Below, piece after piece: positions 8,535-56,423 of a DNA stretch of 64,000 nucleotides (within the stretch, counting starts at the first letter, position 1; each line of letters starts with the position of its first letter). The notes beneath the pieces were generated by a model that saw nothing but the letters and a program-made list of their open reading frames with translations, did not search any database and was not told where the DNA came from. The stretch covers positions 13,366-77,365 of IMG/VR virus record IMGVR_UViG_3300049432_000156. One strand, 5' to 3'. Source of the DNA: a virus. Both the position numbers and the translations under genes were made by a program.

Positions 8535-8836
8535 AACCACTCGCAACAACAAAAACCGCCGCCACTGTAATGTGCCGTCCGCAATTCAGGATCGACTGCG
8601 TTGGCGAGGAAGGCCCTCATTCTGATATGGAGAAATATGGATGGGTGCCAAGTGGGGATGACATGCTTTATCTCACAGTGAAAACCTGTGTGAATACATG
8701 GCATTGCATGGTGCCAAGAGCCGCTATGAACGCCGTGTTCGAGGCGATCAACAAAAACGGTGTCACGATTGAATTTTGCGGTTCAGATAGCCGTCAATCT
8801 CCCATGCCGCTAGACCGCCAGCCTCCGCAGCCGTGA
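8531..8836 (+). CDS. Hypothetical protein
   Basis: Last ORF of + operon, converges on giant gene. Confidence 0.45.
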   Translation: MKPLATTKTAATVMCRPQFRIDCVGEEGPHSDMEKYGWVPSGDDMLYLTVKTCVNTWHCMVPRAAMNAVFEAINKNGVTIEFCGSDSRQSPMPLDRQPPQP

Positions 8837-11800
8837 CTGTCTCGGCCTTCTTGACGCGCCCCTGAGCAAGCTACGAGTTCTCAGCCCACGCCGCAGTGAC
8901 CTTGATCTGAACCCGGAGCGCACGCCGCGCGGAGAGCCAAGAGAGAGTCGGCTGCGCGAACCGCCGAATCCTCCGATGTCGGAAAAAGCGCCTGAGCTTT
9001 CGGATGGCACCGCGCCGAAGCCGCGTCCGCCGCCGAAGCTCCGGGCTGTAGCGCCGCCTCCACCCGTGCCGTAACGGCTGGCAATCTGGTTGAAGACAGC
9101 GTTGGCCTCATTCTGCCGTCCGAGCGCTTCAGGAGTCATACGTGAGTAAATCATTTCGCGTTCGCCGTCCGTCAGCACACGGGAGAACACGGCGGACTCT
9201 GGTGCCCGCGTCCGGATAGCGGAGATGATTGCCTGCTCAGGGTTCGGATTGCCCGACGCACGACTCTGCTCAACGGCTTTGGCAAAGGCTTCGTCCGCCG
9301 TGGACCAATCTCCGACTGCCGCCGCATTCAGAATCGTGTTGTAGAGCGGAGTCATGGGCGTGACGCGCAGATCATTGCCTGACGAAGGCTGCCTTCTCTT
9401 GGCTTCCAAACTCTCCGGCGTATTGGCGCGAAGCTCATTGGCGGCGTTGCGCATCTTGACCAAACCCTCGCGTGATGGCGCCCGGTTGATGAGCGCCCGC
9501 GCCACGGGCGAGTAACGCGCCAGGAAATCCACGGCTGGCCCGGCATCACGGCTCTGGTAAATCTTAGCCATTGTTTGAAGGAGGTCCGTGACGTAGTTCG
9601 CGCCGAAGATCGGATTGCGCAGACCGAGTTTACCTGGTGTATCCTTGAACCCTTTGAAGATGCTGCCCGCCGCACCCCAGAAGTTCGCCGCAACAGAGAG
9701 CAGAATCTTCCAGCGATCATCGTCATTGTCCGCGTCCAGGAAATCCGGTTGCGATGAGATCGTGTTGAACAACGCGTCATTCGCACGCTGCCCGGGAATC
9801 CTCGCAACCAACCCGGCTATGCCCGATGCGATCAGGAAGCCGAACACAAACGGCAGATAACGCACGTCACTGCCTTTCTGGCCGCGGACCTTGGCGAACA
9901 ATTCCTGCAACTTGTCCGTGTTCCAAAGAAACCATTGGCCGAGCACACCGCCAATCTGCCGTTCTTTGCTGCCCATGAAATACGTCGGCCTGCTCGTCGG
10001 CGTGCCCATGTTCGTGTCTTCGGCCATTTTGAACTGCAACGCATACCGCTGCGCCGGGGTCATAATCGGCGCTGTGCGGTTCCCGTTGGGATGCGTCTTG
10101 TTCCACCAATACTTCAGCATGATCAGGTCAACCGGATCGTTGTTTTCCAGGAACATGTTGCGAAGCTGGACAGCGGCTTTGCGCATCGTCAGTCCGACGA
10201 TGATTGGGTCTTTGCCCGTCAATTCGGCAGGTGACAGGAGTTCACCCTTGCCATCCGGCCCGATCAAAACACCGGAGAACCGTTTGTAGTTGTCGCCGTA
10301 TTCCCGATAGAGCCTTGCGAACTCCGGATCGTTCTCAAGCCGGCTGTCGAATGCGCGCATCGCCCGGACTTCCAAAGACCTTCCAAGGCTTTGCTCCTTG
10401 GCGATGGATTTGACATTGATCCAGTTATCGACGGAGCGCATGAAGCCATGCCGCAGTAAGACTTGTCCGGCGCGCGGGATCATCCCGATGTAACCGAACG
10501 CTTCCTTGCTCCCGCTCAGACTTGGGTCGGCGTGAATGTCACGGAACGCGGCCATTGCCGCTTTGAAGTTTTCCGCCAGCGTCCATTCCGCATTGGTGCC
10601 CATCGCTTCCCGGTAAGAGAACCGGTCGATCATGCCCATCCTGGCCTGTTGCTCTCGGTCGGCAGCTTCCTGAGCCATGCCGGATACGATCTCCGTTGCC
10701 GCTTCTCTCAGGTCGCGATTGTCCAACAGCCGTTTGACGGCGTTGGTCTTCATTGCACGCAGAGCTTTAGCGCCCGGGCGAAGACTGACAGGTTCGCCTT
10801 TCCACTTCAGATACGGCACTTTCAATTCCGCCAGAGCAGCAGTTTTTATGGCCGTGCGCACCCAATCTTTTACGAGATGGCCTGTCACCCACAACCAGCC
10901 GCCTTTGCGGATCTCCGCCGTCTTCAATGCCCACATGAACTCGCCTGAAACGCCGTTCGTGATCAAAGTCATCGGTGCCAGGAGCACGTTGCTGACGGCG
11001 AAATTCCACCACGGCATGAACATCCGTGACGCGATGTCATCACCGAAGAATCCCTCGCCGCGTTTTGCGATGTCGGTGACGTTGTTTAACAACCTGCCAA
11101 TGCGGGCGATGTCCCGGTTCACCTCCCAGATCGCCATCTGATGTTTCTGCACGGACTCGTTTCCGGAGACGATGGCTGCGTTCAGCTTGCGCCGGGCCTG
11201 CCAGCCGGTGCCACCGTAAGCGTCCTTCAACGTCTTGGACAACGCGGTCTTCTCCGCGAGTAACGCAGTGTTCAACGACCGCAGGCTGTCGCGGTACTTG
11301 ATGACGTAGAATTCTAGGGCATTGGCGCCTTTGCGGAAGGCATCAACCGGGTCGGTTGTTCCGTACCGGTACAACGTGCCAGGAGCAATCTTTCCGCCGC
11401 GCGGCTGGGTGAATTCGTTCTCATGCACGGTGATGTCCACATTGGCCGCGGTCGCTTTCCTTGCGTTATCATCCGAGACCTTCAGCATGAACTCGTTCAC
11501 TTCATCAATCAGCTTTCGTCGGACTTCGCCAGCAGTTGCCGGTGGCAGTGGCGGGTCAGAGCCTGCGATTCGCTGGTTATACCGATCTGCAATGAACTGC
11601 GCTAACTCATCCAGGCTGGCCGGCATCCGGCCCTCTCTGAACAAAATCTCGCGTTCGTTCCGTATCCGTTTGTAATCCTCAGCGAATTTGCCTTGGCCAA
11701 GCTGGAAATAAGGGCGCTCGTCTTCAAGGACGTGCCCGAGCACGACGCGTTTGTACCGGTCCCCGGCGCTGAGGAATTGGTCGATCTGATTATTCTCCCG

Positions 11801-14800
11801 GGCGCTCTTCCACAACGCCGGCAGTTCACGGCTGCTCGGTGGCAGAAATCGCGGTATCGTTCCCGGCCCGCGCGACAATGGCGCCCTGAACATCCTGAGT
11901 TCATGCTCCTTGATCATGGCCGGGTCCTCGGCCAGGGCGGATTCAAACCCGGCGCGCTGCGCCAGGCGGACAAGGTGTTGCTCGAATTCGTACTGCGTCC
12001 GGATCGCCGCCATGTCTTCTTTGGTGATGACGTGTCCGAATGGTGTGTGCTCGCCGACGTTGTATAACGTCTGTCCAGTGTGCTGCCGAGAATCGTGGAT
12101 GAACGAAGCCACTTCATCGCGCCAACGGTCCAGCGTCATCCCCGGATGCGACCGCATCGCCTTCAGGTTTGTGCCCCGAATGATTTCATCGAACTTCTTC
12201 TGCAACGCATTGTTGGTCTTGAGCGCAAGCGAATAAGCGTTGCCTGCCCTTATCATCTTTAGATTGAGAGCGCCGGGTATCCTTGAAGCCGTCGTTGCCG
12301 AGATCAATCCGTACTTTGATTTGGTAACGAAATTGAACCACTTGATCGGGTTGAACCAAGACGGATCAGTCAGCCGATCGTTGTCCGCGTGCGATGCCAA
12401 GATTTGAGCATCGATGTATTCCGCGAAGTGCATCCAACCAGCGGCTTTGATTGGATCGGCATCCGGTCGCGCCGCGTATTCAAGCCCGGCATCCTTCAGC
12501 GCGTTCAGTTTCAGGAGCAATTCAACCTGCCCACCAAACCGGTAATCCACTTCAACGTCAGCGCCGGTCAACGGATGCTCGTATGTGACAACGACACCGT
12601 CCACCGTGTTCTTGATGTCCTTGATTGCGCCGGTTGCACGCTGCATTTGCTTTCCGAAAGCCACGAATTCTGGGTTGGCATCATGTTCGTTTAGGAACTG
12701 CGCGGCTGCTTCCAGATTCGCCTTCTTTTCAGTCAACGTCTCGATGCGCCGGTCGAGCCGCCGCGCAGCGGCACTGAGCGCATCGGATTCGACTTGAGCC
12801 TTGGCATACTCCTTGAGAATCGCATTGAAACCGCGCGGCGTCCTCGAACGAAGATCGTTCAGGTAATCCGCGTTGAACCGCCGCAACGTTCCGTCGGCCG
12901 TCATCTGGACTTCGAGCAATGCCTGCCGCCAATCGCCAATCTGACGAAGACCCCAGAGCGTTGCCTCGATGACATCGCGCCCAGCGTTGATGGCCTTGTT
13001 GCCTTCCGGTGTTTGGATTTGGTCAAGATGCGTTGCCAATTGGCGGACCCAGGCGCGCACCGTGAGCGGTGGCGATAACCCAGGCGAACCAGTTTGAGTC
13101 GCGATAAGCTCAAGAACGTTTTCGCCAGGCCGTTCAGCCGTCAAAGCAGCGCGCCCGACCAGCCGGGTTATTCCACTCAACGCCCGTGCGTGCGCCACGG
13201 GTTGACTGAGCAAATCATTGAGTTCAGCGATGTGTTCGATGCCTTCGCCGATGACTGCGTTGGTGTGCGCTTTCTCTCCGACAGCGATTTGTTCGGTATG
13301 GATTTTGTCGATGATTTCTCCAAGCCGATTGGTCCGTTCCACCTGCGCTTCGTTGGTTTCCGGTGTGGCCGTGATGCGGTCGGTAATCGCCTGGGCATGA
13401 TCAACGGCAGCCGCCTCCACTTTACTCAGGATTTTCAGCTTCTCCGCCTGGTACAGGTTCCATTCAACAAAGGCATTGTGTGCGTGCTCAGCTTTCTTTT
13501 CCGGCGTGATGTTCGGGTCAGCCATGACCTGGGCGAACGTTGGGCCGGTCTCGCGGTGCGTCCCAATCCTGCCGCCGAACATGTCTTCAAGCTCACCGCG
13601 GATGCCGGCGGGCAAAGCTGTGTAGCGCGGAATCACCGACGACGGCACCAACCCCTTGTTGATGACCGACGCCATTGCGCGGAAGTATTCCGGTGTCCGG
13701 GTTTCCTCCAACGGTTTGACGTACTCCTCGACGGCCTGGCGGGATTCCAGGGCGGCTTGGGTGCCCCTGCTGCGGCTTATGCTGGGAGGTTCCGCGCGGG
13801 CCTGCCCGGCAAGGATGTCCCCGATTGGGCCAGCAGCGCGATCTGCCGGTCCAGTTCTTCCAAGGCCGGCACGTCCTTGTTCCGGAATGCCGACAACTCC
13901 CGGCGCATTGACTCCAAGTGGACCTTCACCAGGCCGTGCAGCTTCACCGGGTCGTTCGGGGCCAACGGCTGAAGAAGATTGAAAACTCTCGGCACGATTC
14001 CTTGTATTGTAATTTTGGAGTCGGTCATTGATTTCATTGAATGCCTCCCAGTTTGTAGTAAAAATCTTGTCCAATGTCCCCTCAAAAATCTCGACGGGTA
14101 TGTCCGCCGAGCGGAGTCTGGCATAGTTGTTCGCGAGTTCAGCGGTAAAATCGGCTCCTTCTGTCCTGGCGGCAACGTGGGTTATTTCGTGAATGAAGAT
14201 GTGCAGAGCTTCCGATGCCGCCGCTGCCGGGCTGCTCCTACCCGCGTTGGAGAACAATCCGAGGTTGAACCATATCGCCCGCATCGGCTTTACCATGTTC
14301 AAGCCGCGATAATTCTTGTCGAAAGAGATTCCGCCGAACCATCCGGTGATCGAAGCGTCGGTGAGTTGTTCGTACTCGCCTCCAACTTTCTTGCCCCATT
14401 CGCGCATGAAGTTCAGAAGGACATTGCCGGTCTCGGTGATCAGTGTCCCGGCGCGCGGAATGTCGTCAAACTCCACGGCGACGTTGTTGTGAAGATTCGG
14501 CACAGACGGGTCCATGTCGCTCACGTCGATTTCCGTTTTCTTCAGGTCAATCTCGCGCTTTGCCTCGAAAGTCTTTCTGACGTACTCCTGCTTGCTCTCG
14601 GTGATCGCGGTTCCGTCCCTGTAGTGAATGACGACATCCGGGCCTCGAAAATCCACGGACTCAATTTCCTTCGGCTTTCTGATCGGAGGCGGCGGTTCGG
14701 ACTTCTTTCGGAAATAACGCCGCTCCATGTCGGCCATCTCTTCCGGCGTCCAATCTTTCATCGGATCAACCTTCTCCAATTGCCGAATGCTGGTGAACGC

Positions 14801-17800
14801 TTCCTTGGCCTGAAGCAGTTCCTGCTCAACCGCCATCCGTTTCAGGAACGTGTACATCGCGTCCACGTCCTCTTTGATCGTCGCGCGCCAGCCCTCCCTT
14901 TGATTGTTGAATGGGTACGCCGCGTTGTCCGTCTTCACCTTCGGGCGGACATCCAGGATGAGATTGTACGGAAGCTTCTTGTCGTTCCAGCCATAAGGAT
15001 CAGCCTCGAATTGTTTCAGCCCGGCGCTGAGAACATGCGTTGTCGGGTAGTCTCTCTTTTCTCGCGGGTCAATGTAGAGGTCGATCCTGCCCCATCCGAA
15101 ATTGAATTCGTTCTCCTTCTGCCAGCCTTCAAGTTTAACGCCGATTGGAAGTTCCGTGCCGTTGAATATCACCCGCACCGGGCCGATGAGCGGTTGAGTC
15201 AGGAAGCTCGGATAGCTGTTGAAGTAAATGGATTTCTGTTCCCCGTAGGCATCGGTGTAGTTTTCCGGAATCTTAACCGTGACCGTCGTTCCGTTCGGTT
15301 CATCGGTGCGCTCGGTCTGGATTTTGAATTTCGAGCTTCTGATTTGATCGGAGCTTGCATCCACCACCGATTTCAGCCCGTTCCGGTTGCTCTCAACCCG
15401 GATGTGTTCGGAGCCAAGAATGAACGCCATCTTCGCAAGGCCAAGCCCGCCCGAAGTATTTTCCAGCGAACCTGTCTTGTAGGTTCCGCCGATGGTGAAA
15501 AAGGCCGTGCGGATAATCTCGGGCGTCATGCCAGTGCCGGTATCCTTCACCATCAGAGTCCGATTGCTGTAATCGGTTTTGATCTCAATAGTTCCTGGAT
15601 TCTCGTAGGTCGCCCCGGCGCTGCGAGCCGTATCGAATGCGTTTTGGAGAAGTTCCTTGGTCGCCACTTCGACAATTGGCTTGCTGTACATCTGCGGACC
15701 TACCAGAGCCATCAACTGCTTCTTGTTGATGTCCAGTTCGATTTCGACATCGCCAGGACCGGCGCGCAGGATATGCGAACCTTTGTCCTTCAACTCGTCG
15801 AACTGCTCGTCGATTGCGGCTTGGGTGCCGCGTTCATGTCCCGTATGAATGTAATCTTTAGCCAGCCCGTAAGAGATAGAAGTGTCTGTGCCGAATACTG
15901 CGTTTATACCATGCTCGATAGCGTAGTCCTTGACTGCCCGTCTGGCCGTATTGGTTAAAGGTTGAGTAGCATCAACCAACAATGTGTTGCTTTTCCTGTC
16001 GAAAACTCCCCTGGCGTAGCGTTTCTTGTCCAATTGATACTCAGGAACCCCTTTACCCGGCTTGAAGTCTTCACCCAATAATCGCCTTGCGGTGAATTCA
16101 TGCTCGAACATGCTGACTGGTGTAATATCACCTTCGGGTGATACCCACATACCGGACGGACCTTCAAGGCCGGCTTGAGTGTCATGCGATAGGAATGACG
16201 TTTCTGGCGTCACATCGTATTTCCCATCCAGAATCGTCCGTTGGAGAATGTCCGCCTGCGTGCGTAGGCCGGGGACACGCTGCCGGATGGCATCAAAGAT
16301 GACCGCCAATATCTGCCGCACCTTGGACAGGAATGCGTCCTGTGATGCGAGGATTTCCTTGGCCTGACCCCAAATGCCTTGGCGGTCGCGCGCAAACCGA
16401 TCCGTCATCATGTGCGCGAAGAACTCCTCTGAACTCGACCAGTTGTAGAACTTATTGTCGATGCCTTCGTCGATGAACCGGCGGTATCCCATCTCGCCAG
16501 CAGCCAGTTTTTGAAGGTCAGCCAAGTCCTTGCCGGTTGCCGTTTGGAGCGCTCTGGCAATCGCATCATCACGCCATCGCTTCACGTTCAGCCGGTCGCT
16601 GTCCTGAACCATCTCCCAAAGCGGGTGAAAGAATTCGTGGGCGCCGACAAATGGATCACGATAACGCGCAACCTCAATAATCTGGTCCACTGGATCGTAG
16701 AATCCGGCAAGTCCACGATCTCGGCCTTGAATACCATCGACCAACCGGAATCGAATCTGACGACCATTGAGATAGCCAGCTACCGGACTGTTCAGAATAT
16801 CCCGCAGAACGGCTCTGTGTTCTTCATCCAACCCGTTTAGCGGATGCTCAACCAAAGCTCGCGCCTCTTGAATGTTCGCGGCTTCTTGAGAGTTCTGTGC
16901 GGTGCCAGGAATTCCTTCCCAGCCTTTTGGAACAGATGCTTGCAGAGGTCGTTCGTATGAATTCCTCAAACTGAAGATGTCAAAGGATTGACCTTCCGGC
17001 GTAACGCCTGTTGCGCGTCCTCTGGCATGAAGCGCCAACTTCAAATCTCTCGGCGATGTTCCTTCGGTGTCTGTGAATGGTCTGGCCTTTTCCGCCGACT
17101 CGACCATCCGCACCCAGCGTTCGTTATTCTCCAACGCGAAAATCCGCCCTTCGCGGAAGTCCTTGGCGAATTGTCTTGCCGCTTCCTCTGTGCGGAATGT
17201 CGCCACGTCCAAGCCTCGCAAATCTCCTTCCAATCCGGCAACGACGCGCCAATTTCGGGTCACTTGATCTTGCTTGTAATCCGACCACACCTGCCCCCAT
17301 CGCCTGTTCTGCGTATTCCACGACCAAATATCTGAGGCTCGTTCTCTGGCTGCATCCGCTTTTGTGCGCTCGTATGCGGCTTCCAACGCTTGTTTAATTC
17401 CTCCGGCTGCATCGACATCCGTCTGAGTCAATCCGTAAGGCAGCGGCAAATCGCTTAGTCCGCCGCCTTGAGAGATTGCCATCTGCCACTCCAAATCATT
17501 CCCGTCCTTCAACCGGCGCAGGTCATTGACCAAGGCGTCTGCCGCAGCTACCGGATCAGGAAGCTTTTTGATCTCCTCGTTCTCTCGCAGCAATTCGTCG
17601 CGGATGCCGTTCCAGAAAGCGTCATCAAGTTCTTCGGGTCGGCGGCCAAGGAGTTGTTCGACAAGTTGCGGATTCTTCTCGCGAAGGTCATCGAAAGCCC
17701 GGCGCGTGATGTCCAGCATCGGACGGCGGCCGCTCACCGGTTGGCCGACTTTCTTCTGCACCTTCGGCAGTTCTTCCAGGGGCACTGGCTGTAGCGGCGT

Positions 17801-19819
17801 CCCTGCCCCGGTCGCAGGTCTGCCGAATGGTTTAACAATGAGGTCGATGTCCTCCGGCGCGTAATGCGTCACGTTGCGGTCATCGACAATCGCAGCCTGC
17901 CGCTTCGCCTTATCGCTCAGGAAGGCCAGAACCGTCGCCTTGTCAACGTTGATGCCACCTTTGACGATCTCGTGCGGAATCTCTGCCAGCGGAATCTTGT
18001 AAGTAGCGCGCTGCGCCGGTCCTTTGATGAGCAGAAAACCCTTCTGCTTCGGATCGTAGATGACGCTGGCTGGGAAGGTGCGCCCTGTACGCGGTTCGGG
18101 CAAGCGGCGGTTGATGGCCTCAAGGGTGAACTCCGGAAGGTCGGCGGCGATGTTGTTGCGGAGGGTTATCCTCGCTCCAGCAGGTTCAACAAATTTCGTT
18201 GCTCTGGGCGCTTCCGGTGGGATGTTTACCACTCCAGTACCACCAGACGCTATAACTGAACCTTCGCGAATTCCGCTAATACGGTAAGCCTCGTCTCTGT
18301 TAACAAAACGTCCTTTATCCGTAAGAAATCCATTCTCAAACCCCGGCTTGGCTTTGCCTTGTTCGGTTATTCCGCCAATCTCACTCAGAATAAGAGGATG
18401 CAACGGGCCAGTGTATATCTCCCCTGTTGGAGTTCTAACCGCTACAGCCACTACTTTTTCGCCGCCAGTCTCCGCATCCGCTGCTTTGACTTCGGCTTGA
18501 CCCGTTCCGGCAGGTTCTTCGGGGGCTTTCCGTATTCCCGCACCCACCGTTTCGCTACCTCCGGGTGTTGGCTGAACAACAGTCTCATCTGCGCTTTTGA
18601 TCGGAATGGCACTTGGAACCTCCTTTGGTTTTGGAACTTCAATTCCCGCCTTCAACAACTGCGGTTCGGTGATGATGTCGTCAACTTTGTAAACGCCTTC
18701 GTCGGCTGGATTGACGAACTGCCGCGTGACTCGAAATTGGCGGACTGTTCCGAATGGTTCGATTTCCTCGACGGGCGGCTCAGGGATTGGTGCCGGCTCT
18801 GGCTTGACCTCGACCGGAATCCCCTGCTCCGCGGCGGACTGGGCGGCAAGGAGCCGGGCGCGCCGATAGATTCTTTCTTCCCGGACGCCTTCTGGCGTTG
18901 CGGCGTATTCCTGCTCCCGTTGCTGGGCGAAATAATCCGTGAGCCTTCCGGCCTCCTGCCGAATCGCTCCTTCATACTCGCTCGGATGCCCGGCTGCGTA
19001 GCCAAGGACGCGTGGCAAGGCAAAGACCGCATTGGCACTGAACGATTCGGCAATTGCCCGATTGCGTTCCTCTGGCGTCATGTGCGTGTACTCCGGCAGA
19101 TTCAACACCTGCCCGACTGCCTGGAGCAATGCCTGGTCAACCGTCGTTTCAATCGCCTTCTGTGCCGTCGGATTGTTCACCAATCCAAAACGGTTGATGA
19201 GACCAGCGGCAATCGGTTTCACGACCTGTCCGACGCCCAGATATAAAGCGCCAAGCGTCCCGCTCTTGACGGCTTGGTAGGGGTCTCCGGTGGCTTCATA
19301 CGTTTCTCCTGCGAAGATCGGAGGATAAACAAACGCTGGAGGCAATTTGGTTACGGCCGTAATCGCTGCCGCTGCTGCGAGGGTCGGAGCGGTTTTCACC
19401 ATTCCAATGACACCGCTTTTTAGTCCTGCCGCAACGCCCCTGTCCTTGGCCAATTCCTGTTCGTATGGCGTCGGCTGATATGTGGTTAGCGCACTGTTGA
19501 CGTTTTCCCATCCTGGTTTCCCGGACAAGACATCCTCGCCAGCACCCGCCAGAACGTTCCCAGTTGCCCGCAGACCGCGAAAGAAGGTGCCGAGTGGGTC
19601 AAAGCGTGAGACAACGTCTGCAACATCGCCTACGGTTCCAGCACCAGCCATTTCGGAACGTAACGATGCCTTCCGCGTTTCTCTGGCAATCAGGTCGTCG
19701 GCAGAAACACTGCGCCCGATGGCGTCGAGGTCCAGAGGTGGGGCGGGCTGTGGAGAATCTGCTACCGCACCAGCAGCGCGGCCAATCGCATCGAGGTCAA
19801 GGATGTCAGCATCAGGCAT
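8810..19819 (-). CDS. Giant (3669 aa) polyvalent virion/ejection protein with GHKL ATPase and two zincin metallopeptidase motifs
   Basis: KELLQNAFD/DTGTGM/GGLGLAK/GTTVTV GHKL boxes; AHEFFH...EEFFA and IHEITH HExxH motifs; last gene of tail/ejection block. Confidence 0.85.
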   Translation of the reverse strand: MPDADILDLDAIGRAAGAVADSPQPAPPLDLDAIGRSVSADDLIARETRKASLRSEMAGAGTVGDVADVVSRFDPLGTFFRGLRATGNVLAGAGEDVLSGKPGWENVNSALTTYQPTPYEQELAKDRGVAAGLKSGVIGMVKTAPTLAAAAAITAVTKLPPAFVYPPIFAGETYEATGDPYQAVKSGTLGALYLGVGQVVKPIAAGLINRFGLVNNPTAQKAIETTVDQALLQAVGQVLNLPEYTHMTPEERNRAIAESFSANAVFALPRVLGYAAGHPSEYEGAIRQEAGRLTDYFAQQREQEYAATPEGVREERIYRRARLLAAQSAAEQGIPVEVKPEPAPIPEPPVEEIEPFGTVRQFRVTRQFVNPADEGVYKVDDIITEPQLLKAGIEVPKPKEVPSAIPIKSADETVVQPTPGGSETVGAGIRKAPEEPAGTGQAEVKAADAETGGEKVVAVAVRTPTGEIYTGPLHPLILSEIGGITEQGKAKPGFENGFLTDKGRFVNRDEAYRISGIREGSVIASGGTGVVNIPPEAPRATKFVEPAGARITLRNNIAADLPEFTLEAINRRLPEPRTGRTFPASVIYDPKQKGFLLIKGPAQRATYKIPLAEIPHEIVKGGINVDKATVLAFLSDKAKRQAAIVDDRNVTHYAPEDIDLIVKPFGRPATGAGTPLQPVPLEELPKVQKKVGQPVSGRRPMLDITRRAFDDLREKNPQLVEQLLGRRPEELDDAFWNGIRDELLRENEEIKKLPDPVAAADALVNDLRRLKDGNDLEWQMAISQGGGLSDLPLPYGLTQTDVDAAGGIKQALEAAYERTKADAARERASDIWSWNTQNRRWGQVWSDYKQDQVTRNWRVVAGLEGDLRGLDVATFRTEEAARQFAKDFREGRIFALENNERWVRMVESAEKARPFTDTEGTSPRDLKLALHARGRATGVTPEGQSFDIFSLRNSYERPLQASVPKGWEGIPGTAQNSQEAANIQEARALVEHPLNGLDEEHRAVLRDILNSPVAGYLNGRQIRFRLVDGIQGRDRGLAGFYDPVDQIIEVARYRDPFVGAHEFFHPLWEMVQDSDRLNVKRWRDDAIARALQTATGKDLADLQKLAAGEMGYRRFIDEGIDNKFYNWSSSEEFFAHMMTDRFARDRQGIWGQAKEILASQDAFLSKVRQILAVIFDAIRQRVPGLRTQADILQRTILDGKYDVTPETSFLSHDTQAGLEGPSGMWVSPEGDITPVSMFEHEFTARRLLGEDFKPGKGVPEYQLDKKRYARGVFDRKSNTLLVDATQPLTNTARRAVKDYAIEHGINAVFGTDTSISYGLAKDYIHTGHERGTQAAIDEQFDELKDKGSHILRAGPGDVEIELDINKKQLMALVGPQMYSKPIVEVATKELLQNAFDTARSAGATYENPGTIEIKTDYSNRTLMVKDTGTGMTPEIIRTAFFTIGGTYKTGSLENTSGGLGLAKMAFILGSEHIRVESNRNGLKSVVDASSDQIRSSKFKIQTERTDEPNGTTVTVKIPENYTDAYGEQKSIYFNSYPSFLTQPLIGPVRVIFNGTELPIGVKLEGWQKENEFNFGWGRIDLYIDPREKRDYPTTHVLSAGLKQFEADPYGWNDKKLPYNLILDVRPKVKTDNAAYPFNNQREGWRATIKEDVDAMYTFLKRMAVEQELLQAKEAFTSIRQLEKVDPMKDWTPEEMADMERRYFRKKSEPPPPIRKPKEIESVDFRGPDVVIHYRDGTAITESKQEYVRKTFEAKREIDLKKTEIDVSDMDPSVPNLHNNVAVEFDDIPRAGTLITETGNVLLNFMREWGKKVGGEYEQLTDASITGWFGGISFDKNYRGLNMVKPMRAIWFNLGLFSNAGRSSPAAAASEALHIFIHEITHVAARTEGADFTAELANNYARLRSADIPVEIFEGTLDKIFTTNWEAFNEINDRLQNYNTRNRAESFQSSSAVGPERPGEAARPGEGPLGVNAPGVVGIPEQGRAGLGRTGPADRAAGPIGDILAGQARAEPPSISRSRGTQAALESRQAVEEYVKPLEETRTPEYFRAMASVINKGLVPSSVIPRYTALPAGIRGELEDMFGGRIGTHRETGPTFAQVMADPNITPEKKAEHAHNAFVEWNLYQAEKLKILSKVEAAAVDHAQAITDRITATPETNEAQVERTNRLGEIIDKIHTEQIAVGEKAHTNAVIGEGIEHIAELNDLLSQPVAHARALSGITRLVGRAALTAERPGENVLELIATQTGSPGLSPPLTVRAWVRQLATHLDQIQTPEGNKAINAGRDVIEATLWGLRQIGDWRQALLEVQMTADGTLRRFNADYLNDLRSRTPRGFNAILKEYAKAQVESDALSAAARRLDRRIETLTEKKANLEAAAQFLNEHDANPEFVAFGKQMQRATGAIKDIKNTVDGVVVTYEHPLTGADVEVDYRFGGQVELLLKLNALKDAGLEYAARPDADPIKAAGWMHFAEYIDAQILASHADNDRLTDPSWFNPIKWFNFVTKSKYGLISATTASRIPGALNLKMIRAGNAYSLALKTNNALQKKFDEIIRGTNLKAMRSHPGMTLDRWRDEVASFIHDSRQHTGQTLYNVGEHTPFGHVITKEDMAAIRTQYEFEQHLVRLAQRAGFESALAEDPAMIKEHELRMFRAPLSRGPGTIPRFLPPSSRELPALWKSARENNQIDQFLSAGDRYKRVVLGHVLEDERPYFQLGQGKFAEDYKRIRNEREILFREGRMPASLDELAQFIADRYNQRIAGSDPPLPPATAGEVRRKLIDEVNEFMLKVSDDNARKATAANVDITVHENEFTQPRGGKIAPGTLYRYGTTDPVDAFRKGANALEFYVIKYRDSLRSLNTALLAEKTALSKTLKDAYGGTGWQARRKLNAAIVSGNESVQKHQMAIWEVNRDIARIGRLLNNVTDIAKRGEGFFGDDIASRMFMPWWNFAVSNVLLAPMTLITNGVSGEFMWALKTAEIRKGGWLWVTGHLVKDWVRTAIKTAALAELKVPYLKWKGEPVSLRPGAKALRAMKTNAVKRLLDNRDLREAATEIVSGMAQEAADREQQARMGMIDRFSYREAMGTNAEWTLAENFKAAMAAFRDIHADPSLSGSKEAFGYIGMIPRAGQVLLRHGFMRSVDNWINVKSIAKEQSLGRSLEVRAMRAFDSRLENDPEFARLYREYGDNYKRFSGVLIGPDGKGELLSPAELTGKDPIIVGLTMRKAAVQLRNMFLENNDPVDLIMLKYWWNKTHPNGNRTAPIMTPAQRYALQFKMAEDTNMGTPTSRPTYFMGSKERQIGGVLGQWFLWNTDKLQELFAKVRGQKGSDVRYLPFVFGFLIASGIAGLVARIPGQRANDALFNTISSQPDFLDADNDDDRWKILLSVAANFWGAAGSIFKGFKDTPGKLGLRNPIFGANYVTDLLQTMAKIYQSRDAGPAVDFLARYSPVARALINRAPSREGLVKMRNAANELRANTPESLEAKRRQPSSGNDLRVTPMTPLYNTILNAAAVGDWSTADEAFAKAVEQSRASGNPNPEQAIISAIRTRAPESAVFSRVLTDGEREMIYSRMTPEALGRQNEANAVFNQIASRYGTGGGGATARSFGGGRGFGAVPSESSGAFSDIGGFGGSRSRLSLGSPRGVRSGFRSRSLRRGLRTRSLLRGASRRPRQSRLRRLAV
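13752..15829. repeat. 14-bp exact direct repeats GCGGCTTGGGTGCC (13752-13765, 15816-15829) flanking the GHKL-zincin module
   Basis: Read directly; third copy 11/14 at 16170-16183; all encode TQA(A/G)(L/I)(E/D). Confidence 0.75.
13777..14037 (-). CDS. Nested out-of-frame ORF (86 aa, helical) inside giant gene
   Basis: GGGAGG-6 nt-ATG; MKSMTDSKITIQGIVPRVFNLL...LEELDRQIALL; host frame is a G/R/A/P linker here. Confidence 0.55.
   Translation of the reverse strand: MKSMTDSKITIQGIVPRVFNLLQPLAPNDPVKLHGLVKVHLESMRRELSAFRNKDVPALEELDRQIALLAQSGTSLPGRPARNLPA
18451..18612 (-). CDS. Nested out-of-frame ORF (53 aa, MPFxSKAQ-type small basic phage protein)
   Basis: AAAGGAGGT-TCCAA-GTG; PFRSKAQMRLLFSQHPEVAKRWVREYG...LPERVK. 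Confidence 0.75.
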   Translation of the reverse strand: MPFRSKAQMRLLFSQHPEVAKRWVREYGKPPKNLPERVKPKSKQRMRRLAAKK

Positions 19820-24554: not shown

Positions 24555-25199
24555 ATGCCAAACCGAAAATCCTACATAGGGCAGAGATACGCAATGCTTG
24601 TTATCATTCGCGATGGCCCAGATTACCACTGTCCGTCTGGGGGCAAGCCGGTCCGCACATTCATCTGCGAGTGTGATTGCGGAAATATCGTGACAGTCCA
24701 CAGGACAAAATGGAGGTATACGCGATCTTGCAGACCGTGTGCTCATCTCAGTCATGGGCACGCCCGGCGAAGTGGGCTTAGCCGAACGTATCGGTCTTGG
24801 AGGAACATGATCCAGAGATGCGAAAACCCCAACTGCTTAGAATTTCACAGGTATGGCGGCGATGGCGTTACGATCTGCGAGCGATGGCATTCTTTTCCGG
24901 AGTTTCTTGCCGACATGGGCGAATGCCCTCCAAGACTCACAATCGAACGCGTCGATAATGAGGCTGGATATTTCCCGGGTAACTGCATTTGGGCGACTTA
25001 CAAAACGCAGAACAGAAATCAATCGAGCAATATCGTGCTCAGTTTTTCTGGTGTCACTGCATGTCTGGGGGAATTGTGCGAGCGTTTCAATATGCCGTAC
25101 TACAAGGTTTATTATTTGCTGTCACGCGGGTGGTCTATTGAGGATGCGTTTGCAAGATTTAGAACTCAGACTTCGCTACCGACAAGCCGACACCGCTAA
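24555..25199 (+). CDS. HNH homing endonuclease
   Basis: CECDCG, WRNMIQRC, YGGDG, FLADMG, TIERVDNEAGYFPGNCIWAT. Confidence 0.9.
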   Translation: MPNRKSYIGQRYAMLVIIRDGPDYHCPSGGKPVRTFICECDCGNIVTVHRTKWRYTRSCRPCAHLSHGHARRSGLSRTYRSWRNMIQRCENPNCLEFHRYGGDGVTICERWHSFPEFLADMGECPPRLTIERVDNEAGYFPGNCIWATYKTQNRNQSSNIVLSFSGVTACLGELCERFNMPYYKVYYLLSRGWSIEDAFARFRTQTSLPTSRHR

Positions 25200-27483
25200 T
25201 GCAGCAGCCTCCACCGAGACCGGCCACCTTCAGTCTGTATCCGAAGTAGCGGCCTCTCGCCGCAGTGAAAAACGCCGCATCCATTCCGGGTCTCGTCATG
25301 TTTGCCTGATGCTCTGCGGCGGAAAATTCACTCAAACATCTAAGCTCCACACCTTGTTCAATCACTCCATTCGGCTGAACGTTTCTCATCAGTTTCCAAC
25401 TTGGGCAATTCGGCTCTGCTGCAAAGCCGATGTAACCGTACAATAGATTCGGTGAAGTCTGCGGCTCCGCACGATAGGAAACCTTGACTTCACGGCACGA
25501 CTTTTCTCCATCAACTCGCAAGTCCTCCATGCCACTTTGGATCACAGAATCGTATCCCCTAAACACATAGAGGCCGTTGACCAATTGCTCTCGGTAGAAA
25601 ATTCCATCTTCGTATTGTTTCAAACATCGGTCGCTGGTATCTGCCATCACGAAAATTTTTCGGCCAGTGCAACCCTTGCAAAAATCCTCAGCCGTTCGAT
25701 TACCCAAGATGGCGCACAGCGAATCCGTGTCCGCCGGCAGCGACGGGTCTTCGGTCTCGTTCCAGATGCAGGTCGGGCTTGCGGTTGCTTCAACATCGCT
25801 CTCGGTTGGTTCGCCTTCCTTGATGGTCGGCGGAAGTTCATTGCGTTCGCAGACACCAAGTTCTTCCAGCCAATCCGCCACGGTCGGCAGCCGGTCGGAT
25901 TCAAAAATGCAAAAAGCCGAGAAGCCGTGATCCACGAGATCGGCGGCTTCCTGTTGCCGGGTGAGATTGAACACCAACGAGACGTTCGGGCATGAGTTGT
26001 CACCGGTTGGCCAGGACCACCAAAGCTCTTTGAGCACCGAGTTGTAACCGCCCGTGACAAGGTCGCACGCATCGTTGTTCAGGGGGCCATACGACGTTTC
26101 AAACTCGTCGATGCCGGCGAAGATGACCGGTGACGTCGCGCGCATCCAGCCGACTTCAATCGGAGACGCATCGGCCAGCGTCATCAGGAGAATCTTATCC
26201 TCGCTCAGGTAGTAAATCTGCTCGCCCGTGTTCACCAGCGAGAACTTGTATTTGCACGCATCCGGCCCACGATAAATCGTCTCGAAATTAAAAACTTCAC
26301 CGGAAGAAACCAGCGACCCGCGGTGAATCGCCTGGTCTGAGAAGCAGTAAAGATAATCACCAAGGACTTCCATCCTGAGAATCCGCTCCCCGCTACCGAT
26401 GTCTTGGAAGCCGGCCAGGGAATCGGTTGTCGGAATGAACGAGATCGGGTTCTTGTAGTCCGACCAGACGACACGGTGCGGATAGTAAGAACCGTCCTGC
26501 TCCACGTCAGCAAGGAACATGAACCCCTTGAACTCGGCCAGGCAACCGACCTTGGTGATGTTCAAATCTTCCAAGTCCGGGATCGGGCGCGCGCTCCACA
26601 AATCGCAGTTACTCCCGTCTCCGGGCTGTGGAGAGTCATCGAAATACCACCAGAGCGGAGGGTCGAAATCGTTTGAAAGTACGAGGATGTTGTCCATCTG
26701 CGCGGAGAGGAACCGGCGCTGCGAACAACCGGTGCAATCCAGCGTCGCATCGACCGTTCCTCCAAGACCGTCCGCCAGAATTCGCCAGTTGCCCGTGCGC
26801 TCGTTCAACGAATACAGACGGCTCTTTGTTCCCGCGATGAGCTTCCGGAAGTTGCGCGGACTCCTGAACTCTGCCAGATAAGTGATGGCCTCACGGCAAC
26901 CGCCTCTCACCAATGGGACTTCGCCACAGTACAGATACTCGTAACCGAAAGTCGGTGAATAGATGCCTTCATACGGTCCATACGGGTATCCTTCGGTCAC
27001 GAATCCAGACTCGCCTTCATGGCACATTGTCCGATAGTACGTGAGCGGTGGAAAATCGTAATAGAAATAGGCGAAGCACGCGTTGTTGGCCGTGACCCCG
27101 AACGGAAATGCTCCGTAAGGGTCTCCGGGGTGATTCACGTAGTCTGACGTGAAGATGTCGTACCCAGGATTGTATCCGGTCGGGTGATGATAGCTGTAGG
27201 CGTAGTGATCGAATTCACCGCCCCCCGAGAGGAAGGCCGAGTAGCCTTCGTAATATAGCTGGCTTGAAAATAATTGATCTGCCAACGATTCGTTGTTGTA
27301 GCTCTGGTTGACGCCGTCGAGAAGCTTGACCCATCCGCCGCGCCGGCATCGCTTTCCTATCGCGCGCACCGACATGTTCTTCACCAAGACGAAACTTCCG
27401 GCACCGGTTGAATCCGGCAACGATCTGATGTCAAAAAGCCCCGTCAAGGGCCTTACCGGAACCAAAGCGTATTTCGATGGCAT
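25159..27483 (-). CDS. Tail tubular/stabilisation protein (podovirus gp10/gp12-like)
   Basis: 774 aa with beta-propeller-like motifs (RVVWSD, ELWWSWP, RGRYFGYRL); position. Confidence 0.65.
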   Translation of the reverse strand: MPSKYALVPVRPLTGLFDIRSLPDSTGAGSFVLVKNMSVRAIGKRCRRGGWVKLLDGVNQSYNNESLADQLFSSQLYYEGYSAFLSGGGEFDHYAYSYHHPTGYNPGYDIFTSDYVNHPGDPYGAFPFGVTANNACFAYFYYDFPPLTYYRTMCHEGESGFVTEGYPYGPYEGIYSPTFGYEYLYCGEVPLVRGGCREAITYLAEFRSPRNFRKLIAGTKSRLYSLNERTGNWRILADGLGGTVDATLDCTGCSQRRFLSAQMDNILVLSNDFDPPLWWYFDDSPQPGDGSNCDLWSARPIPDLEDLNITKVGCLAEFKGFMFLADVEQDGSYYPHRVVWSDYKNPISFIPTTDSLAGFQDIGSGERILRMEVLGDYLYCFSDQAIHRGSLVSSGEVFNFETIYRGPDACKYKFSLVNTGEQIYYLSEDKILLMTLADASPIEVGWMRATSPVIFAGIDEFETSYGPLNNDACDLVTGGYNSVLKELWWSWPTGDNSCPNVSLVFNLTRQQEAADLVDHGFSAFCIFESDRLPTVADWLEELGVCERNELPPTIKEGEPTESDVEATASPTCIWNETEDPSLPADTDSLCAILGNRTAEDFCKGCTGRKIFVMADTSDRCLKQYEDGIFYREQLVNGLYVFRGYDSVIQSGMEDLRVDGEKSCREVKVSYRAEPQTSPNLLYGYIGFAAEPNCPSWKLMRNVQPNGVIEQGVELRCLSEFSAAEHQANMTRPGMDAAFFTAARGRYFGYRLKVAGLGGGCCISGVGLSVAKSEF

Positions 27484-39464: not shown

Positions 39465-40259
39465 TCAATGAGATTCTAGATGCCTGATGCGAGCTTCGCA
39501 CTGGCGTCTCTGTCGCTGAGAGATGACAAGTTTGGCGCGAGTCTCAGCGGAAAGAGTTCTTCCCAATTTCGCTGCTCGCATTTTTGCGACGGTTTCCGGG
39601 CCGTGCTTTTTGCCAAAGAACCCGTTCTTATCGCCCTTGTTTGCGATGCTCATTCTGGCGCGAGTCTCATCAGAAGGCGGCTTTCTGTTCTTTCCAGCTA
39701 TCCTCATGTTTTCCCGGGCCGTGTCTGACATTTTTCTGCCAAGGTTTATTTTTCTTAGAAGTTCTCGAACACGTGGACGCATCGGATTTCCGGGCTTCCC
39801 TTTTCTCGCCACGCTCAGTTTAGCTATAGTCTCCGGGGTGACACTATGCCCCATCAACTTTGCGCGAATCCTGGATCGCATTTCTGGTGTGCGCGGCTTT
39901 CCAAATAGTGGATTGTCTTCTCCGGAGCCAAGCCCCTCGCCTCCGGGAGTTGCATTCGTCAGATCACACCCTTCTTCCCTGAAGAATATGATATAGGCAG
40001 CTTCTGCCGCCTGCCAATCATGGACACAAACCTTGTCGATGATTTGAAGAATTGGACGCAATCCTTTCGCGACGAGGGATCGAATCCAACGCGCTCTGTA
40101 GGTATTTTCGGATGCGCTCGTTCTGATGTGCAGTCCAAGTCTAGCCGCAGGTTTGTCGGTTTTTCCGATGTACCGAATTTCCCGCGTTCGCGGATCAACC
40201 AGAGCATAGATAAAAGTTGTCGGGGCGTCCTTTTTAGCGATAGGTTCTATGGCAGACAT
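39465..40259 (-). CDS. GIY-YIG homing endonuclease with NUMOD3 repeats
   Basis: FIYALVDPR..IRYIGKT, TNATPGGEG, NPLFGK/SAETRAK repeats. Confidence 0.9.
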   Translation of the reverse strand: MSAIEPIAKKDAPTTFIYALVDPRTREIRYIGKTDKPAARLGLHIRTSASENTYRARWIRSLVAKGLRPILQIIDKVCVHDWQAAEAAYIIFFREEGCDLTNATPGGEGLGSGEDNPLFGKPRTPEMRSRIRAKLMGHSVTPETIAKLSVARKGKPGNPMRPRVRELLRKINLGRKMSDTARENMRIAGKNRKPPSDETRARMSIANKGDKNGFFGKKHGPETVAKMRAAKLGRTLSAETRAKLVISQRQRRQCEARIRHLESH

Positions 40260-55832: not shown

Positions 55833-55948
55833 GTTCCCATGTCCGGCCAGTCCAGGTGATTGGCTGGACATTGGAGCGAAATGGCAAACCCTGAAAGGAA
55901 AAGTGGCTGTGGAACATTTTGTTCCACAGAAATGAAACGGAGGACACC

Positions 55949-56143
55949 ATGACACAAGACCTGGCCCTGGAAGCGGCGCTGCGACACCTGGCCAGCGCGG
56001 ATCACGCCCTGAACAATGCCTGTCTGATGGAACGGCATGGACTAACGGAGTTGGCGGAACGCGACCTGGCGGAAGCCTTGACGCATGAAATCGCGGCGCT
56101 GTGCTGCGACCGGATGGCGAAGATTTATGAACCAAAACGCTGA
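55949..56143 (+). CDS. Hypothetical protein
   Basis: GGAGG RBS before ATG. Confidence 0.6.
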   Translation: MTQDLALEAALRHLASADHALNNACLMERHGLTELAERDLAEALTHEIAALCCDRMAKIYEPKR

Positions 56144-56423
56144 GATAATTCGCGCTCTGACAGAGCGGCTGGACGTCGACACCGGGCACGGCGGGATAGG
56201 TTCCAGCTACGGCCTGGTTCGTGGCTATTGCGCAGCCATCGGGACTTGGGCGCCATACACCGGACCATTGCCGAATCTCATTGCCGTTTGCCGGCTTGCT
56301 GACGAAGAACTGTCCAGAAGGGAAGCTGCTGGAGAAGTCCTGAACGCACGGGAACGCCTTATTTCAATCGCTTTGCGAGAGTCAATCGCACGCGCTTCAA
56401 TGCAACATCACTCGGACAAATAG
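56127..56423 (+). CDS. Hypothetical protein
   Basis: Early-region ORF. Confidence 0.55.
   Translation: MNQNAEIIRALTERLDVDTGHGGIGSSYGLVRGYCAAIGTWAPYTGPLPNLIAVCRLADEELSRREAAGEVLNARERLISIALRESIARASMQHHSDK

What the first reader, a model, noticed from the sequence alone, without database searches (positions are those of the whole stretch)
18451..18626. Overprinted 53-aa MPFxSKAQ-type gene inside the giant gene
A near-perfect SD (AAAGGAGGT), 5-nt spacer and GTG precede PFRSKAQMRLLFSQHPEVAKRWVREYGKPPKNLPERVK. From memory this resembles a widespread stand-alone small basic phage protein. The main frame here is a low-complexity linker, immediately followed by an AT-richer small domain (GFLTDKGRFVNRDEA). 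Strong SDs are uncommon in this genome, where most genes are ATGA-coupled. Standard gene callers would miss this ORF.
Basis: partly seen in the sequence, partly recalled or inferred. Interest (0 to 1): 0.7.

Follow-up and report, generated by a model that had tools for sequence, protein, structure and literature searches.

The report
Small phage gene hidden inside giant gene
A 53-residue, very basic protein gene sits in the +1 reading frame inside a 3669-residue phage virion-type gene; it belongs to a very large, uncharacterised phage family that is embedded in the same way, unannotated, in hundreds of other phages, including 68 cultured Flavobacterium phages.

Summary
On the minus strand, AAAGGAGGT (18626-18618), a 5-nt spacer and GTG (18612-18610) open a 53-codon ORF that ends at TAG 18453-18451. 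It lies in the +1 frame of the 3669-aa ORF 19819-8810.

The peptide is not a chance ORF. It matches small phage proteins that begin MPF(K/R)SKAQ (best E 1e-13), and a family profile finds 4530 cluster representatives. The motif is almost always at residue 1.

About a quarter of the copies sampled are embedded in a longer same-strand ORF, always in phase +1. The host ORFs are unrelated giants, a roughly 400-aa gene next to the portal gene, and gp18 of 68 cultured Flavobacterium 'elemo' phages, where the small gene is not annotated.

In the overlap, substitutions follow the nested frame: 72/61/171 by nested codon position in 29 independent pairs. The host frame is only kept free of stops. So the small gene is the constrained, probably older reading, and the giant's linker is the overprint.

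Function is unknown. There is no Pfam or PDB relative, and the AlphaFold2 model is three helices. Gene context suggests a head or internal-virion protein. Expression in this phage was not tested.

The parts
18451..18612 (-). Nested gene: GTG start, 53 codons (MPFRSKAQ...AAKK), TAG stop. pI about 11.8, 17 K+R against 3 D+E.
   Evidence: sequence and translation. (homologues, E 1e-13). (all invariant family residues present). (AlphaFold2 pLDDT 90.5, three helices). (charge).
18610..18612 (-). GTG start codon of the nested gene. It aligns with the invariant Met-1 of the family.
18618..18626 (-). Shine-Dalgarno-like AAAGGAGGT, 5 nt upstream of the GTG. It reads K-E-V in the host frame.
   Evidence: (motif not enriched in the window). 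(no SD at 38 other gene starts).
8810..19819 (-). Host gene: 3669-aa giant ORF with a GHKL ATPase domain, the last large gene of the virion-gene block. The nested gene overlaps its codons 403-457.
   Evidence: ORF. (HATPase_c_3, E 7e-9). (virion structural protein and large terminase nearby).
18451..18612 (-). Host-frame read-through of the same bases: acidic low-complexity linker SAIPIKSADETVVQPTPGGSETVGAGIRKAPEEPAGTGQAEVKAADAETGGEKVV (pI about 4.5), kept free of stops.
   Evidence: (this frame is closed in 39 of 41 stand-alone copies, so its openness here is not automatic).

Best explanation
Bases 18612-18451 (minus strand) are a genuine, independently initiated protein-coding gene embedded in the +1 frame of the giant virion-type gene.

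Shown: it is a full-length member of a very large, phage-specific family of small basic proteins. The family has the N-terminal motif M-P-F-K/R-S-K-A-Q, then HP(E/K)(I/V)A, then LPE(R/K)V, then a Lys/Arg tail. It corresponds roughly to phrog_1375, whose function is unknown. In relatives, the overlapped DNA evolves under purifying selection on the nested frame, while the host frame is only kept open as an acidic, disordered linker.

Inferred: ribosomes start at the internal GTG, helped here by a strong SD, and make a 6.4-kDa protein separately from the giant protein. The small gene is the older reading. The host ORF came to run through it, either by extension or fusion of neighbouring virion genes across a small gene of the head module, or by transfer of the dual-coding segment between acidic linkers.

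Inferred with lower confidence (about 0.35-0.4): the product is a head or internal-virion protein. Its N-terminal two-helix hairpin would dock it in the procapsid or portal region, and its basic tail would contact DNA, so that it is made together with the virion proteins whose genes host it.
For: - **Homology.** Six small proteins were found, with E down to 1e-13 and 73% identity. There are 387 relatives in viral contigs. A profile search finds 4530 representatives at E<=1e-3 and 936 at E<=1e-10. All invariant residues are present in the window copy.
- **N-terminal position.** The domain starts at residue 1 in 136 of the 149 best hits; most of the others have a Met directly before P-F. Stand-alone copies in SD-using contexts carry an SD before that ATG.
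- **Recurrent embedding, always phase +1.** 16 of 80 viral loci and 26 of 80 metagenome loci are embedded. So are 77 of 80 relatives of a roughly 400-aa gene next to the portal gene. So is the copy in gp18 (3694 aa) of the cultured Flavobacterium elemo phage record read in full; tblastn places the same copy under a 'structural protein' feature in all 68 elemo records.
- **Unrelated hosts.** The host ORFs are not homologous to the window's giant.
- **Selection.** In close pairs, 5 of 6, 7 of 9 and 4-6 of 6-8 differences are synonymous in the nested frame and non-synonymous in the host frame. In 29 independent pairs, differences by nested codon position are 72/61/171 (chi-square p 2e-16). The non-overlapped part of the same host genes gives 297/187/633 by host codon position.
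- **Host-frame openness is not intrinsic.** That frame is open in only 2 of 41 stand-alone copies.
- **Evidence from the window alone.** GC by codon position in the overlap follows the nested frame (0.57/0.43/0.74), like the genome's genes (0.61/0.45/0.65), and not the host frame (0.74/0.57/0.43). This ranks 86th of 3616 sliding windows.
- **Fold.** AlphaFold2 gives pLDDT 90.5.
- **Context pointing to the head or virion.** Gene orders seen are portal-small gene-scaffold or major head (L013, L014), portal-...-fusion protein (L059) and terminase-small gene (L053, L062). In L026 and L039 the small gene directly follows a giant gene. The hosts of embedded copies are annotated structural proteins. 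Long family members are N-terminal domain plus Q/G/A-rich low-complexity proteins.
Against: - There are no expression data for this phage: no RNA run holds it, and no proteomics or ribosome data exist.
- No close DNA relative of the window's own lineage was recovered, so selection on the nested frame is shown in other lineages and only inferred here.
- The phage's other genes lack SD motifs, so the SD may not work in its host.
- The compositional switch is supportive, not decisive: a G/P/A-rich stretch elsewhere in the giant scores higher.
- The nested gene has been lost by deletion or decay in three relatives while the host gene survived (L182, L205, L224), so it is dispensable at least sometimes.
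- Function has no direct support. There is no Pfam or PDB relative. In Streptomyces phage FlowerPower the family member lies next to the holin gene, not the portal gene.
Confidence: 0.78

Rival explanations
1. A mobile, self-propagating dual-coding cassette. The small ORF with its short leader moves between acidic linkers of different virion genes and persists because it reads through harmlessly in the host frame. This resembles the out-of-frame HNH insertions ('ShiLan') in phage methylase genes. It need not exclude a useful function for the phage.
For: - The same phase (+1) is seen in every embedded copy, although the host ORFs are unrelated.
- One subfamily (MPFKSKAQMKACY...) sits in the giant gp18 in elemo phages. 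In five uncultured relatives it sits in the portal-adjacent gene, with one copy per genome. Nucleotide similarity is confined to the ORF.
- On the family tree, embedded copies fall in several places among stand-alone ones.
- Homologous giants have the gene nested (L020) or placed after their stop codon (L026, L039).
- There is a published precedent for a hidden out-of-frame gene with a GTG start inside an in-frame insertion (PMC11855218).
Against: - No nuclease, recombinase or other mobility domain is present. The protein is 42-55 aa and modelled as three helices.
- Most copies are ordinary stand-alone genes at a conserved place in the head module.
- Losses are internal deletions or decay, not precise excisions.
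- The tree of 45 columns is poorly resolved, so the number of origins is uncertain.
Confidence: 0.2
2. A silent relic. A once free-standing small gene was engulfed by the giant ORF and is no longer translated in this phage. It still looks intact only because the engulfment is recent.
For: - Decay and deletion of embedded copies do happen (L182, L205, L224).
- There is no expression evidence for the window.
- The SD may be irrelevant in this host.
Against: - All invariant family residues, a start codon at the homologous position and the stop are intact.
- Codon-position GC follows the nested frame.
- In three other lineages with data, embedded copies are under purifying selection.
- It is the only family copy in the 77-kb record.
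Confidence: 0.08
3. Programmed +1 ribosomal frameshift. Ribosomes translating the giant gene slip into the nested frame and make a truncated 403-aa N-terminal fragment that ends in the MPFKSKAQ domain.
For: - The phase is always +1 relative to the host.
- Some high-GC soil contigs have long open stretches in frame upstream of the motif.
Against: - The domain is at residue 1 of the protein in 136 of the 149 best family hits.
- A start codon is conserved at exactly that point in all embedded copies: 64 of 64 are ATG in one set, and the window has GTG.
- The nested frame is closed by a stop 0-9 codons upstream of the start in nearly all embedded relatives (27 in L076) and 13 codons upstream in the window, which leaves almost no room for a shift site.
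Confidence: 0.03

Closest known systems
phrog_1375 (PHROGs v4, unknown function), the stand-alone MPFKSKAQ small proteins of phages; an example is gene 48 of Streptomyces phage FlowerPower
   Same: Same sequence family. 19 of 39 aligned members hit phrog_1375, with a best E of 1.8e-7. The motifs, length and basic tail are shared. The BFVD structural neighbours are these uncharacterised proteins.
   Different: The window copy itself scores only E 0.04 against the PHROG profile. It is embedded in another gene rather than free-standing. No function is attached to the family.
Lambda Rz/Rz1 and other embedded spanins: a gene wholly inside another gene in the +1 frame
   Same: Same architecture: a small gene with its own start, fully contained in the +1 frame of a larger same-strand phage gene. 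That Rz1 lies embedded in the +1 frame of Rz is from my own knowledge; PMC5295617 was seen only as a title and abstract.
   Different: There is no signal peptide or lipobox, so it is not an outer-membrane lipoprotein. The hosts are virion or head-module genes, not lysis genes. The embedded gene also exists free-standing in most phages and sits in unrelated hosts.
ShiLan-type out-of-frame HNH insertions in phage DNA methylase genes (PMC11855218)
   Same: A segment that reads through without stops in the host frame hides a complete gene in another frame. That gene starts at GTG a few bases into the segment. The arrangement is found in different host genes and is missed by annotation.
   Different: The hidden protein here has no endonuclease or any catalytic domain. 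It is about 50 aa, and no homing is shown.
Small basic internal head or ejected proteins of tailed phages (T4 internal proteins with N-terminal capsid-targeting sequences; T7 gp6.7/gp7.3). This comparison rests on my own knowledge and was not tested.
   Same: Small, very basic, encoded among head and internal-virion genes, with an N-terminus that matters functionally.
   Different: There is no sequence or structural similarity. Virion association of the present family is not shown.

Membership tests
MPFKSKAQ small-protein family (about phrog_1375) | Significant sequence similarity to family members | tested here: met
   phmmer gives E 1.1e-13, 9.5e-13 and 9.3e-9 to P0001-P0003. tblastn confirmed 387 viral loci.
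MPFKSKAQ small-protein family (about phrog_1375) | Motif M-P-[FY]-x-S-x-x-Q at residue 1, then P..A about 9 residues later, then L-P about 15 further on, then a Lys/Arg tail | tested here: met
   The invariant columns P2, Q8 and P17 and the nearly invariant M1, S5, A20 and P35 are all present in the window copy. The start codon aligns with Met-1.
MPFKSKAQ small-protein family (about phrog_1375) | Match to the PHROG profile itself | tested here: inconclusive
   The window peptide scores E 0.041 (63-aa form) and gives no hit at E<=0.01 (52-aa form). 19 of 39 aligned relatives do match.
Embedded out-of-frame gene (Rz1-in-Rz type architecture) | Wholly inside a longer same-strand ORF, in a different frame, with its own start and stop | tested here: met
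   +1 frame, host codons 403-457 of 3669.
Embedded out-of-frame gene (Rz1-in-Rz type architecture) | Purifying selection on the embedded frame | tested here: met
   Met in relatives. For the window's own lineage there is only compositional support, because no close DNA relative was found.
Embedded out-of-frame gene (Rz1-in-Rz type architecture) | Translation of the embedded frame | not testable with these tools
   No RNA run holds the sequence, and no ribosome or proteome data are available.
Spanin outer-membrane subunit (Rz1-like) | Signal peptide with a lipobox Cys | tested here: not met
   The sequence has no Cys and no hydrophobic N-terminus. It is modelled as a soluble helical hairpin.
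Homing-endonuclease insertion (ShiLan-like) | Nuclease domain (HNH, GIY-YIG, LAGLIDADG) in the hidden frame | tested here: not met
   No Pfam hit. No PDB match by fold or sequence.
Programmed frameshift product | Open nested frame upstream of the domain, with room for a shift site | tested here: not met
   A stop lies 13 codons upstream in the window, and 0-9 codons upstream in nearly all embedded relatives, 27 in L076.

The most novel reading that the evidence does not exclude
The MPFKSKAQ gene is a phase-locked, horizontally moving 'gene within a linker'. It would be a roughly 150-nt dual-coding module: a basic three-helix protein in one frame and a harmless acidic spacer in the -1 frame. 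The module relocates among unrelated virion genes (giant ejection-type proteins, the portal-adjacent gene) across distant phage lineages, which makes it a recurrent and systematically unannotated component of phage structural operons. A further possibility was not tested: the basic product may bind the acidic stretch, or the protein, encoded by its own host frame.
Probability: 0.3. Interest if true: 0.8.

Novelty: new variant of a known kind. Interest (0 to 1): 0.66.

Why it matters
Embedded out-of-frame genes are known in phages mainly as isolated cases, such as Rz1 in Rz and the genes of phiX174. Here one conserved small-protein family, with thousands of cluster representatives, is embedded again and again. 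The phase is always the same. The hosts are unrelated large virion genes, in soil, marine and freshwater phages and in 68 cultured Flavobacterium phages.

Three consequences follow:
- Gene callers forbid such nesting, so a sizeable fraction of the family is invisible in databases. The linker regions of giant phage proteins are being read as protein sequence when the selected reading is in another frame.
- The case is a clean natural example in which the long gene is the overprint and the short gene is the ancestral reading. This reverses the usual assumption.
- It offers a tractable system, the elemo phages on Flavobacterium sp. BAL314, for asking how ribosomes start inside a translated ORF in a Bacteroidota host that lacks SD-led initiation, and what this ubiquitous small head-module protein does.

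Tried and rejected
- **Close relatives of the window's giant.** The N-terminal 700 aa found none in viral contigs. The genome scan found six MAG contigs, all with stand-alone, N-terminal-fusion or unclear copies.
- **Function by similarity.** Pfam gave nothing for the peptide, for ten relatives or fusions, or for the flanking window proteins. Foldseek against the PDB found nothing. BFVD returned only uncharacterised family members. The PDB sequence profile found nothing.
- **RNA structure around the start.** Nothing unusual, z = 0.26.
- **Sequencing runs.** No RNA holder is listed.
- **Rejected idea: the host frame is intrinsically stop-free.** I considered that the host (N-1) frame might be open for this family's coding sequence, which would explain the constant phase. 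It is open in only 2 of 41 stand-alone copies, against 13 of 41 for the other frame.
- **Rejected idea: elemo gp27 holds a decayed copy.** Its +1 frame shows no recognisable remnant.
- **Window giant against elemo gp18.** No significant similarity.
- **Literature.** Searches found no description of this family or arrangement, nor an elemo virion proteome.


Full report
**1. What is there**

The feature is on the minus strand. Reading that strand, AAAGGAGGT occupies 18626-18618. TCCAA follows, then GTG at 18612-18610. After the GTG come 52 sense codons and TAG at 18453-18451: (M)PFRSKAQMRLLFSQHPEVAKRWVREYGKPPKNLPERVKPKSKQRMRRLAAKK.

The ORF is entirely inside the 3669-aa ORF 19819-8810 and is shifted by +1 relative to it. 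Over the same bases the giant's frame reads an acidic, low-complexity linker (pI about 4.5). The nested product has 17 Lys+Arg against 3 Asp+Glu and a pI of about 11.8.

The window belongs to a 77-kb soil viral record. Few of its genes can be recognised: a large terminase at 40299-41882, a virion structural protein at 25159-27483, a DnaB-type helicase-primase and a GIY-YIG/NUMOD3 endonuclease. The giant gene carries a GHKL ATPase domain and is the last large gene of the minus-strand virion block.

**2. The peptide belongs to a real, very large family**

A search of 5.8 billion proteins returned six small proteins of 47-59 aa. All begin MPF(R/K/V)S(K/Q)(A/S)Q, and the best scores were E 1e-13, 1e-12 and 9e-9. 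A pattern scan of IMG/VR found 387 confirmed relatives.

A profile of 39 members found 4530 representatives of 50%-identity clusters at E<=1e-3, and 936 at E<=1e-10. Of the 149 best:
- 136 carry the motif at residue 1, and most of the rest have a Met immediately before P-F, which points to miscalled starts;
- 79 are 80 aa or shorter;
- 41 are longer than 150 aa.

The long forms consist of this N-terminal domain followed by Q/G/A-rich low-complexity sequence with glycine-zipper-like hydrophobic stretches.

The family is not in Pfam. It corresponds to phrog_1375, of unknown function: 19 of 39 members hit it, while the window copy scores only E 0.04.

AlphaFold2 with the 39-sequence alignment gives a confident model with mean pLDDT 90.5. 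It has helices at 5-14 and 16-26, an extended segment carrying the conserved L-P, and a basic helix at 42-51. Foldseek finds nothing in the PDB. In BFVD it finds only uncharacterised family members. A sequence profile against the PDB finds nothing.

Only six hits occur in about 186,000 prokaryotic species genomes, all on MAG contigs. So this is a phage family. Several of those stand-alone copies have clear SD motifs before the ATG of MPF.

**3. The same nesting recurs, always in the same phase**

For every fetched locus I asked whether another frame is open across the small ORF.
- In viral contigs, 16 of 80 copies lie inside a longer same-strand ORF.
- In metagenome contigs, 26 of 80 do, and several copies scored as 'alone' are simply cut by contig ends.

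The hosts are of two kinds. One kind is giants of about 1800-2900 aa (L002, L006, L020-24, L037, L061, L072, L076, L083, L088, L095, L102, L105). The other is an acidic ORF of about 400-430 aa. In every case the nested frame is host +1.

The roughly 400-aa ORF lies between the portal gene and a capsid-like gene (L097: terminase, portal, host ORF, virion structural protein). Its own ATG lies 38-67 codons upstream of the nested ATG. This host family has at least 595 relatives in IMG/VR. Of the best 80:
- 64 carry the nested ORF by my first motif;
- 13 carry the variant MPFKHKRQM...;
- one (L182) holds a decayed remnant with stops;
- two (L205, L224) have an internal deletion of about 20 host codons that removes it.

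The window's giant shows no BLASTP similarity to any of the other hosts.

**4. Cultured phages have it too, unannotated**

tblastn places a 42-aa member (MPFKSKAQMKACYSQDNPKWDCKKWSKETPSKKSLPNKVKKK) in all 68 GenBank records of Flavobacterium 'elemo' podophages (genus Elemovirus, host Flavobacterium sp. BAL314). The only feature named under each match is a 'structural protein'. In the record read in full, NC_055853.1, the copy lies at 52379-52507, in the +1 frame of gp18, a 3694-aa 'structural protein' (48718-59802), and no CDS is annotated for it. An uncultured record from Manatee Spring shows the same inside a giant annotated as a 'rhoptry protein'.

The elemo homologue of the portal-adjacent host gene (gp27, 339 aa) lacks the nested gene. 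Five uncultured relatives with the longer portal-adjacent gene each have exactly one family copy, and it is there. The elemo copy and those copies belong to the same subfamily. Their nucleotide similarity stops at the ORF borders. So one subfamily occupies two different host genes in related phages, in the same phase.

**5. Which frame is under selection**

In close pairs from three lineages, most differences in the overlap are synonymous in the nested frame and non-synonymous in the host frame. The counts are 5 of 6 for L020/L021, 7 of 9 for L037/L072 and 4-6 of 6-8 for L008-L012.

I then took 29 phylogenetically independent pairs of the portal-adjacent host lineage.
- Differences in the overlap fall 72/61/171 on nested codon positions 1/2/3 (chi-square p 2e-16).
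- A non-overlapped part of the same host genes shows 297/187/633 on host positions 1/2/3.

The three-base periodicity of substitution therefore jumps from the host frame to the nested frame exactly in the overlap. The host's own wobble position is the least variable there.

The host frame is nevertheless not open by accident. In 41 stand-alone copies that frame is stop-free in only 2, whereas the other alternative frame is stop-free in 13. So in embedded copies both readings are maintained. The nested one is maintained for its amino-acid sequence, and the host one merely for being open.

This makes the small gene the constrained and probably ancestral reading, and the host linker the overprint.

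**6. Evidence within the window itself**

No close DNA relative of this lineage was found, so selection cannot be measured here directly. There is indirect support:
- all invariant family residues are present;
- a start codon is at the homologous position;
- this is the only family copy in the record;
- GC content by codon position in the overlap follows the nested frame (0.57/0.43/0.74), like the giant gene overall (0.61/0.45/0.65), and not the host frame (0.74/0.57/0.43).

This compositional switch ranks 86th of 3616 sliding windows. It is suggestive only, because a G/P/A-rich stretch scores higher.

On the SD: none of 38 ordinary gene starts in the window has one, and AAGGAGG is not enriched (8 against 6.6 expected). 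Its exact placement before this start is unlikely by chance, at about 4e-4 by my rough estimate. It could serve internal initiation. But embedded relatives have A-rich, SD-less leaders, and the host's use of SD is unknown. I count it as weak support.

**7. How it most likely works**

Independent initiation at the internal start is the best model, for three reasons:
- the domain is always N-terminal;
- a start codon is conserved at that exact point (64 of 64 ATG in one set);
- the nested frame is closed by a stop 0-9 codons upstream in nearly all embedded relatives (27 in L076) and 13 codons upstream here, which leaves no room for a +1 frameshift fusion.

As for what the protein does, context is the only guide.
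- Stand-alone copies sit directly after the portal gene and before the scaffold or major head gene (L013, L014), after the large terminase gene (L053, L062), or directly after a giant gene (L026, L039).
- In-frame fusions put the domain at the N-terminus of a 429-aa protein in the post-portal position (L059) and of long low-complexity proteins.
- Embedded copies sit in genes annotated as structural.

I therefore favour a small basic head or internal-virion protein, with a probability of about 0.35-0.4. Its N-terminal hairpin would dock it in the procapsid or portal region, and its tail would contact DNA. Other possibilities are an assembly adaptor for the ejection-type proteins or a nucleic-acid-binding regulator. 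One counter-example to the head context is Streptomyces phage FlowerPower, where the member lies beside the holin gene.

**8. Origin, and the unexplained constant phase**

Two routes fit the data.
- **Engulfment.** The free-standing order portal-small gene-scaffold and the embedded arrangement in the portal-adjacent gene look like extension of a neighbouring ORF across the small gene.
- **Transfer of the dual-coding segment between acidic linkers.** The elemo case, the nested-versus-after-the-stop positions in homologous giants and the scattered placement on the family tree (poorly resolved, with at least two origins of each host type forced) point this way.

The invariant +1 phase is not explained by stop-codon avoidance. 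It might reflect shared ancestry of a mobile segment. Or only this phase may turn a Lys/Arg-rich peptide into a harmless Glu/Gln/Ser/Thr-rich spacer. I leave this open.

The closest published analogue is the ShiLan insertion in phage methylases, which reads through in frame and hides an out-of-frame HNH gene with a GTG start (PMC11855218). Here no nuclease is present.

**9. Verdict**

Embedded genes as such are known. This family, its scale, its recurrent phase-locked embedding in unrelated virion genes, and its presence in cultured phages without annotation appear not to have been described in the literature I could search. I rate it a new variant of a known kind, with interest 0.66. Translation and function remain to be shown.

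Noticed in passing
NC_055853.1 52379-52507 (L250 1501-1629), and 67 further elemo phage records: Cultured Flavobacterium phages (Elemovirus) carry an unannotated 42-aa family member in the +1 frame of the 3694-aa gp18 'structural protein'. This gives a laboratory system for testing the nested gene.
   Followed up: yes
L182 about 2660-2760; L205 and L224 (5' part of the portal-adjacent ORF): Natural losses of the nested gene. L182 has a decayed copy with stops (…LFKSKRQRRFL*). L205 and L224 have deletions of about 20 host codons. The host ORF stays intact in all three.
   Followed up: partly
P0048, P0061, P0084 (long family members): Besides the N-terminal MPF domain, these proteins share a second conserved block (…VE[KA]EH[TS]… [IL]…DH…E…YY…) among Gly/Ala-rich hydrophobic stretches. 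It was not identified: the one PDB search made (P0048) found nothing, and these proteins were not scanned against Pfam.
   Followed up: no
window 39465-40259 (-): A GIY-YIG plus NUMOD3 homing-endonuclease-like gene lies between the virion operon and the divergently transcribed large terminase gene (40299-41882, +).
   Followed up: no
window 13979-15958 (+): A 659-aa open frame runs antisense to the giant gene, and a 295-aa one at 18359-19246 (+) runs antisense across the nested gene. Both are probably by-products of G+C-rich coding sequence. Not examined.
   Followed up: no
window about 13835-14010 (-), giant codons about 1937-1995: A G/P/A-rich low-complexity stretch of the giant protein has an even stronger '+1-like' codon-position GC pattern than the nested gene. 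It is probably low complexity rather than a second hidden gene; the +1 frame there was not examined.
   Followed up: partly
window 18300-18450 (-), giant residues about 458-520: The small domain just after the overlap (…VRTPTGEIYTGPLHPL…GFLTDKGRFVNRDEAYRI…) matched no Pfam family in the whole-protein scan. It remains unidentified.
   Followed up: no
all embedded copies (L002…L248, elemo, window): The nested frame is host +1 in every one of more than 120 embedded copies, although that host frame is closed in 39 of 41 free-standing copies. No explanation was found.
   Followed up: partly
window 43297-44769 (-): A 490-aa protein has strong matches to phrog_5982 (E 4e-91) and to kinase-annotated phrog_10912. 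Its function is unknown.
   Followed up: no
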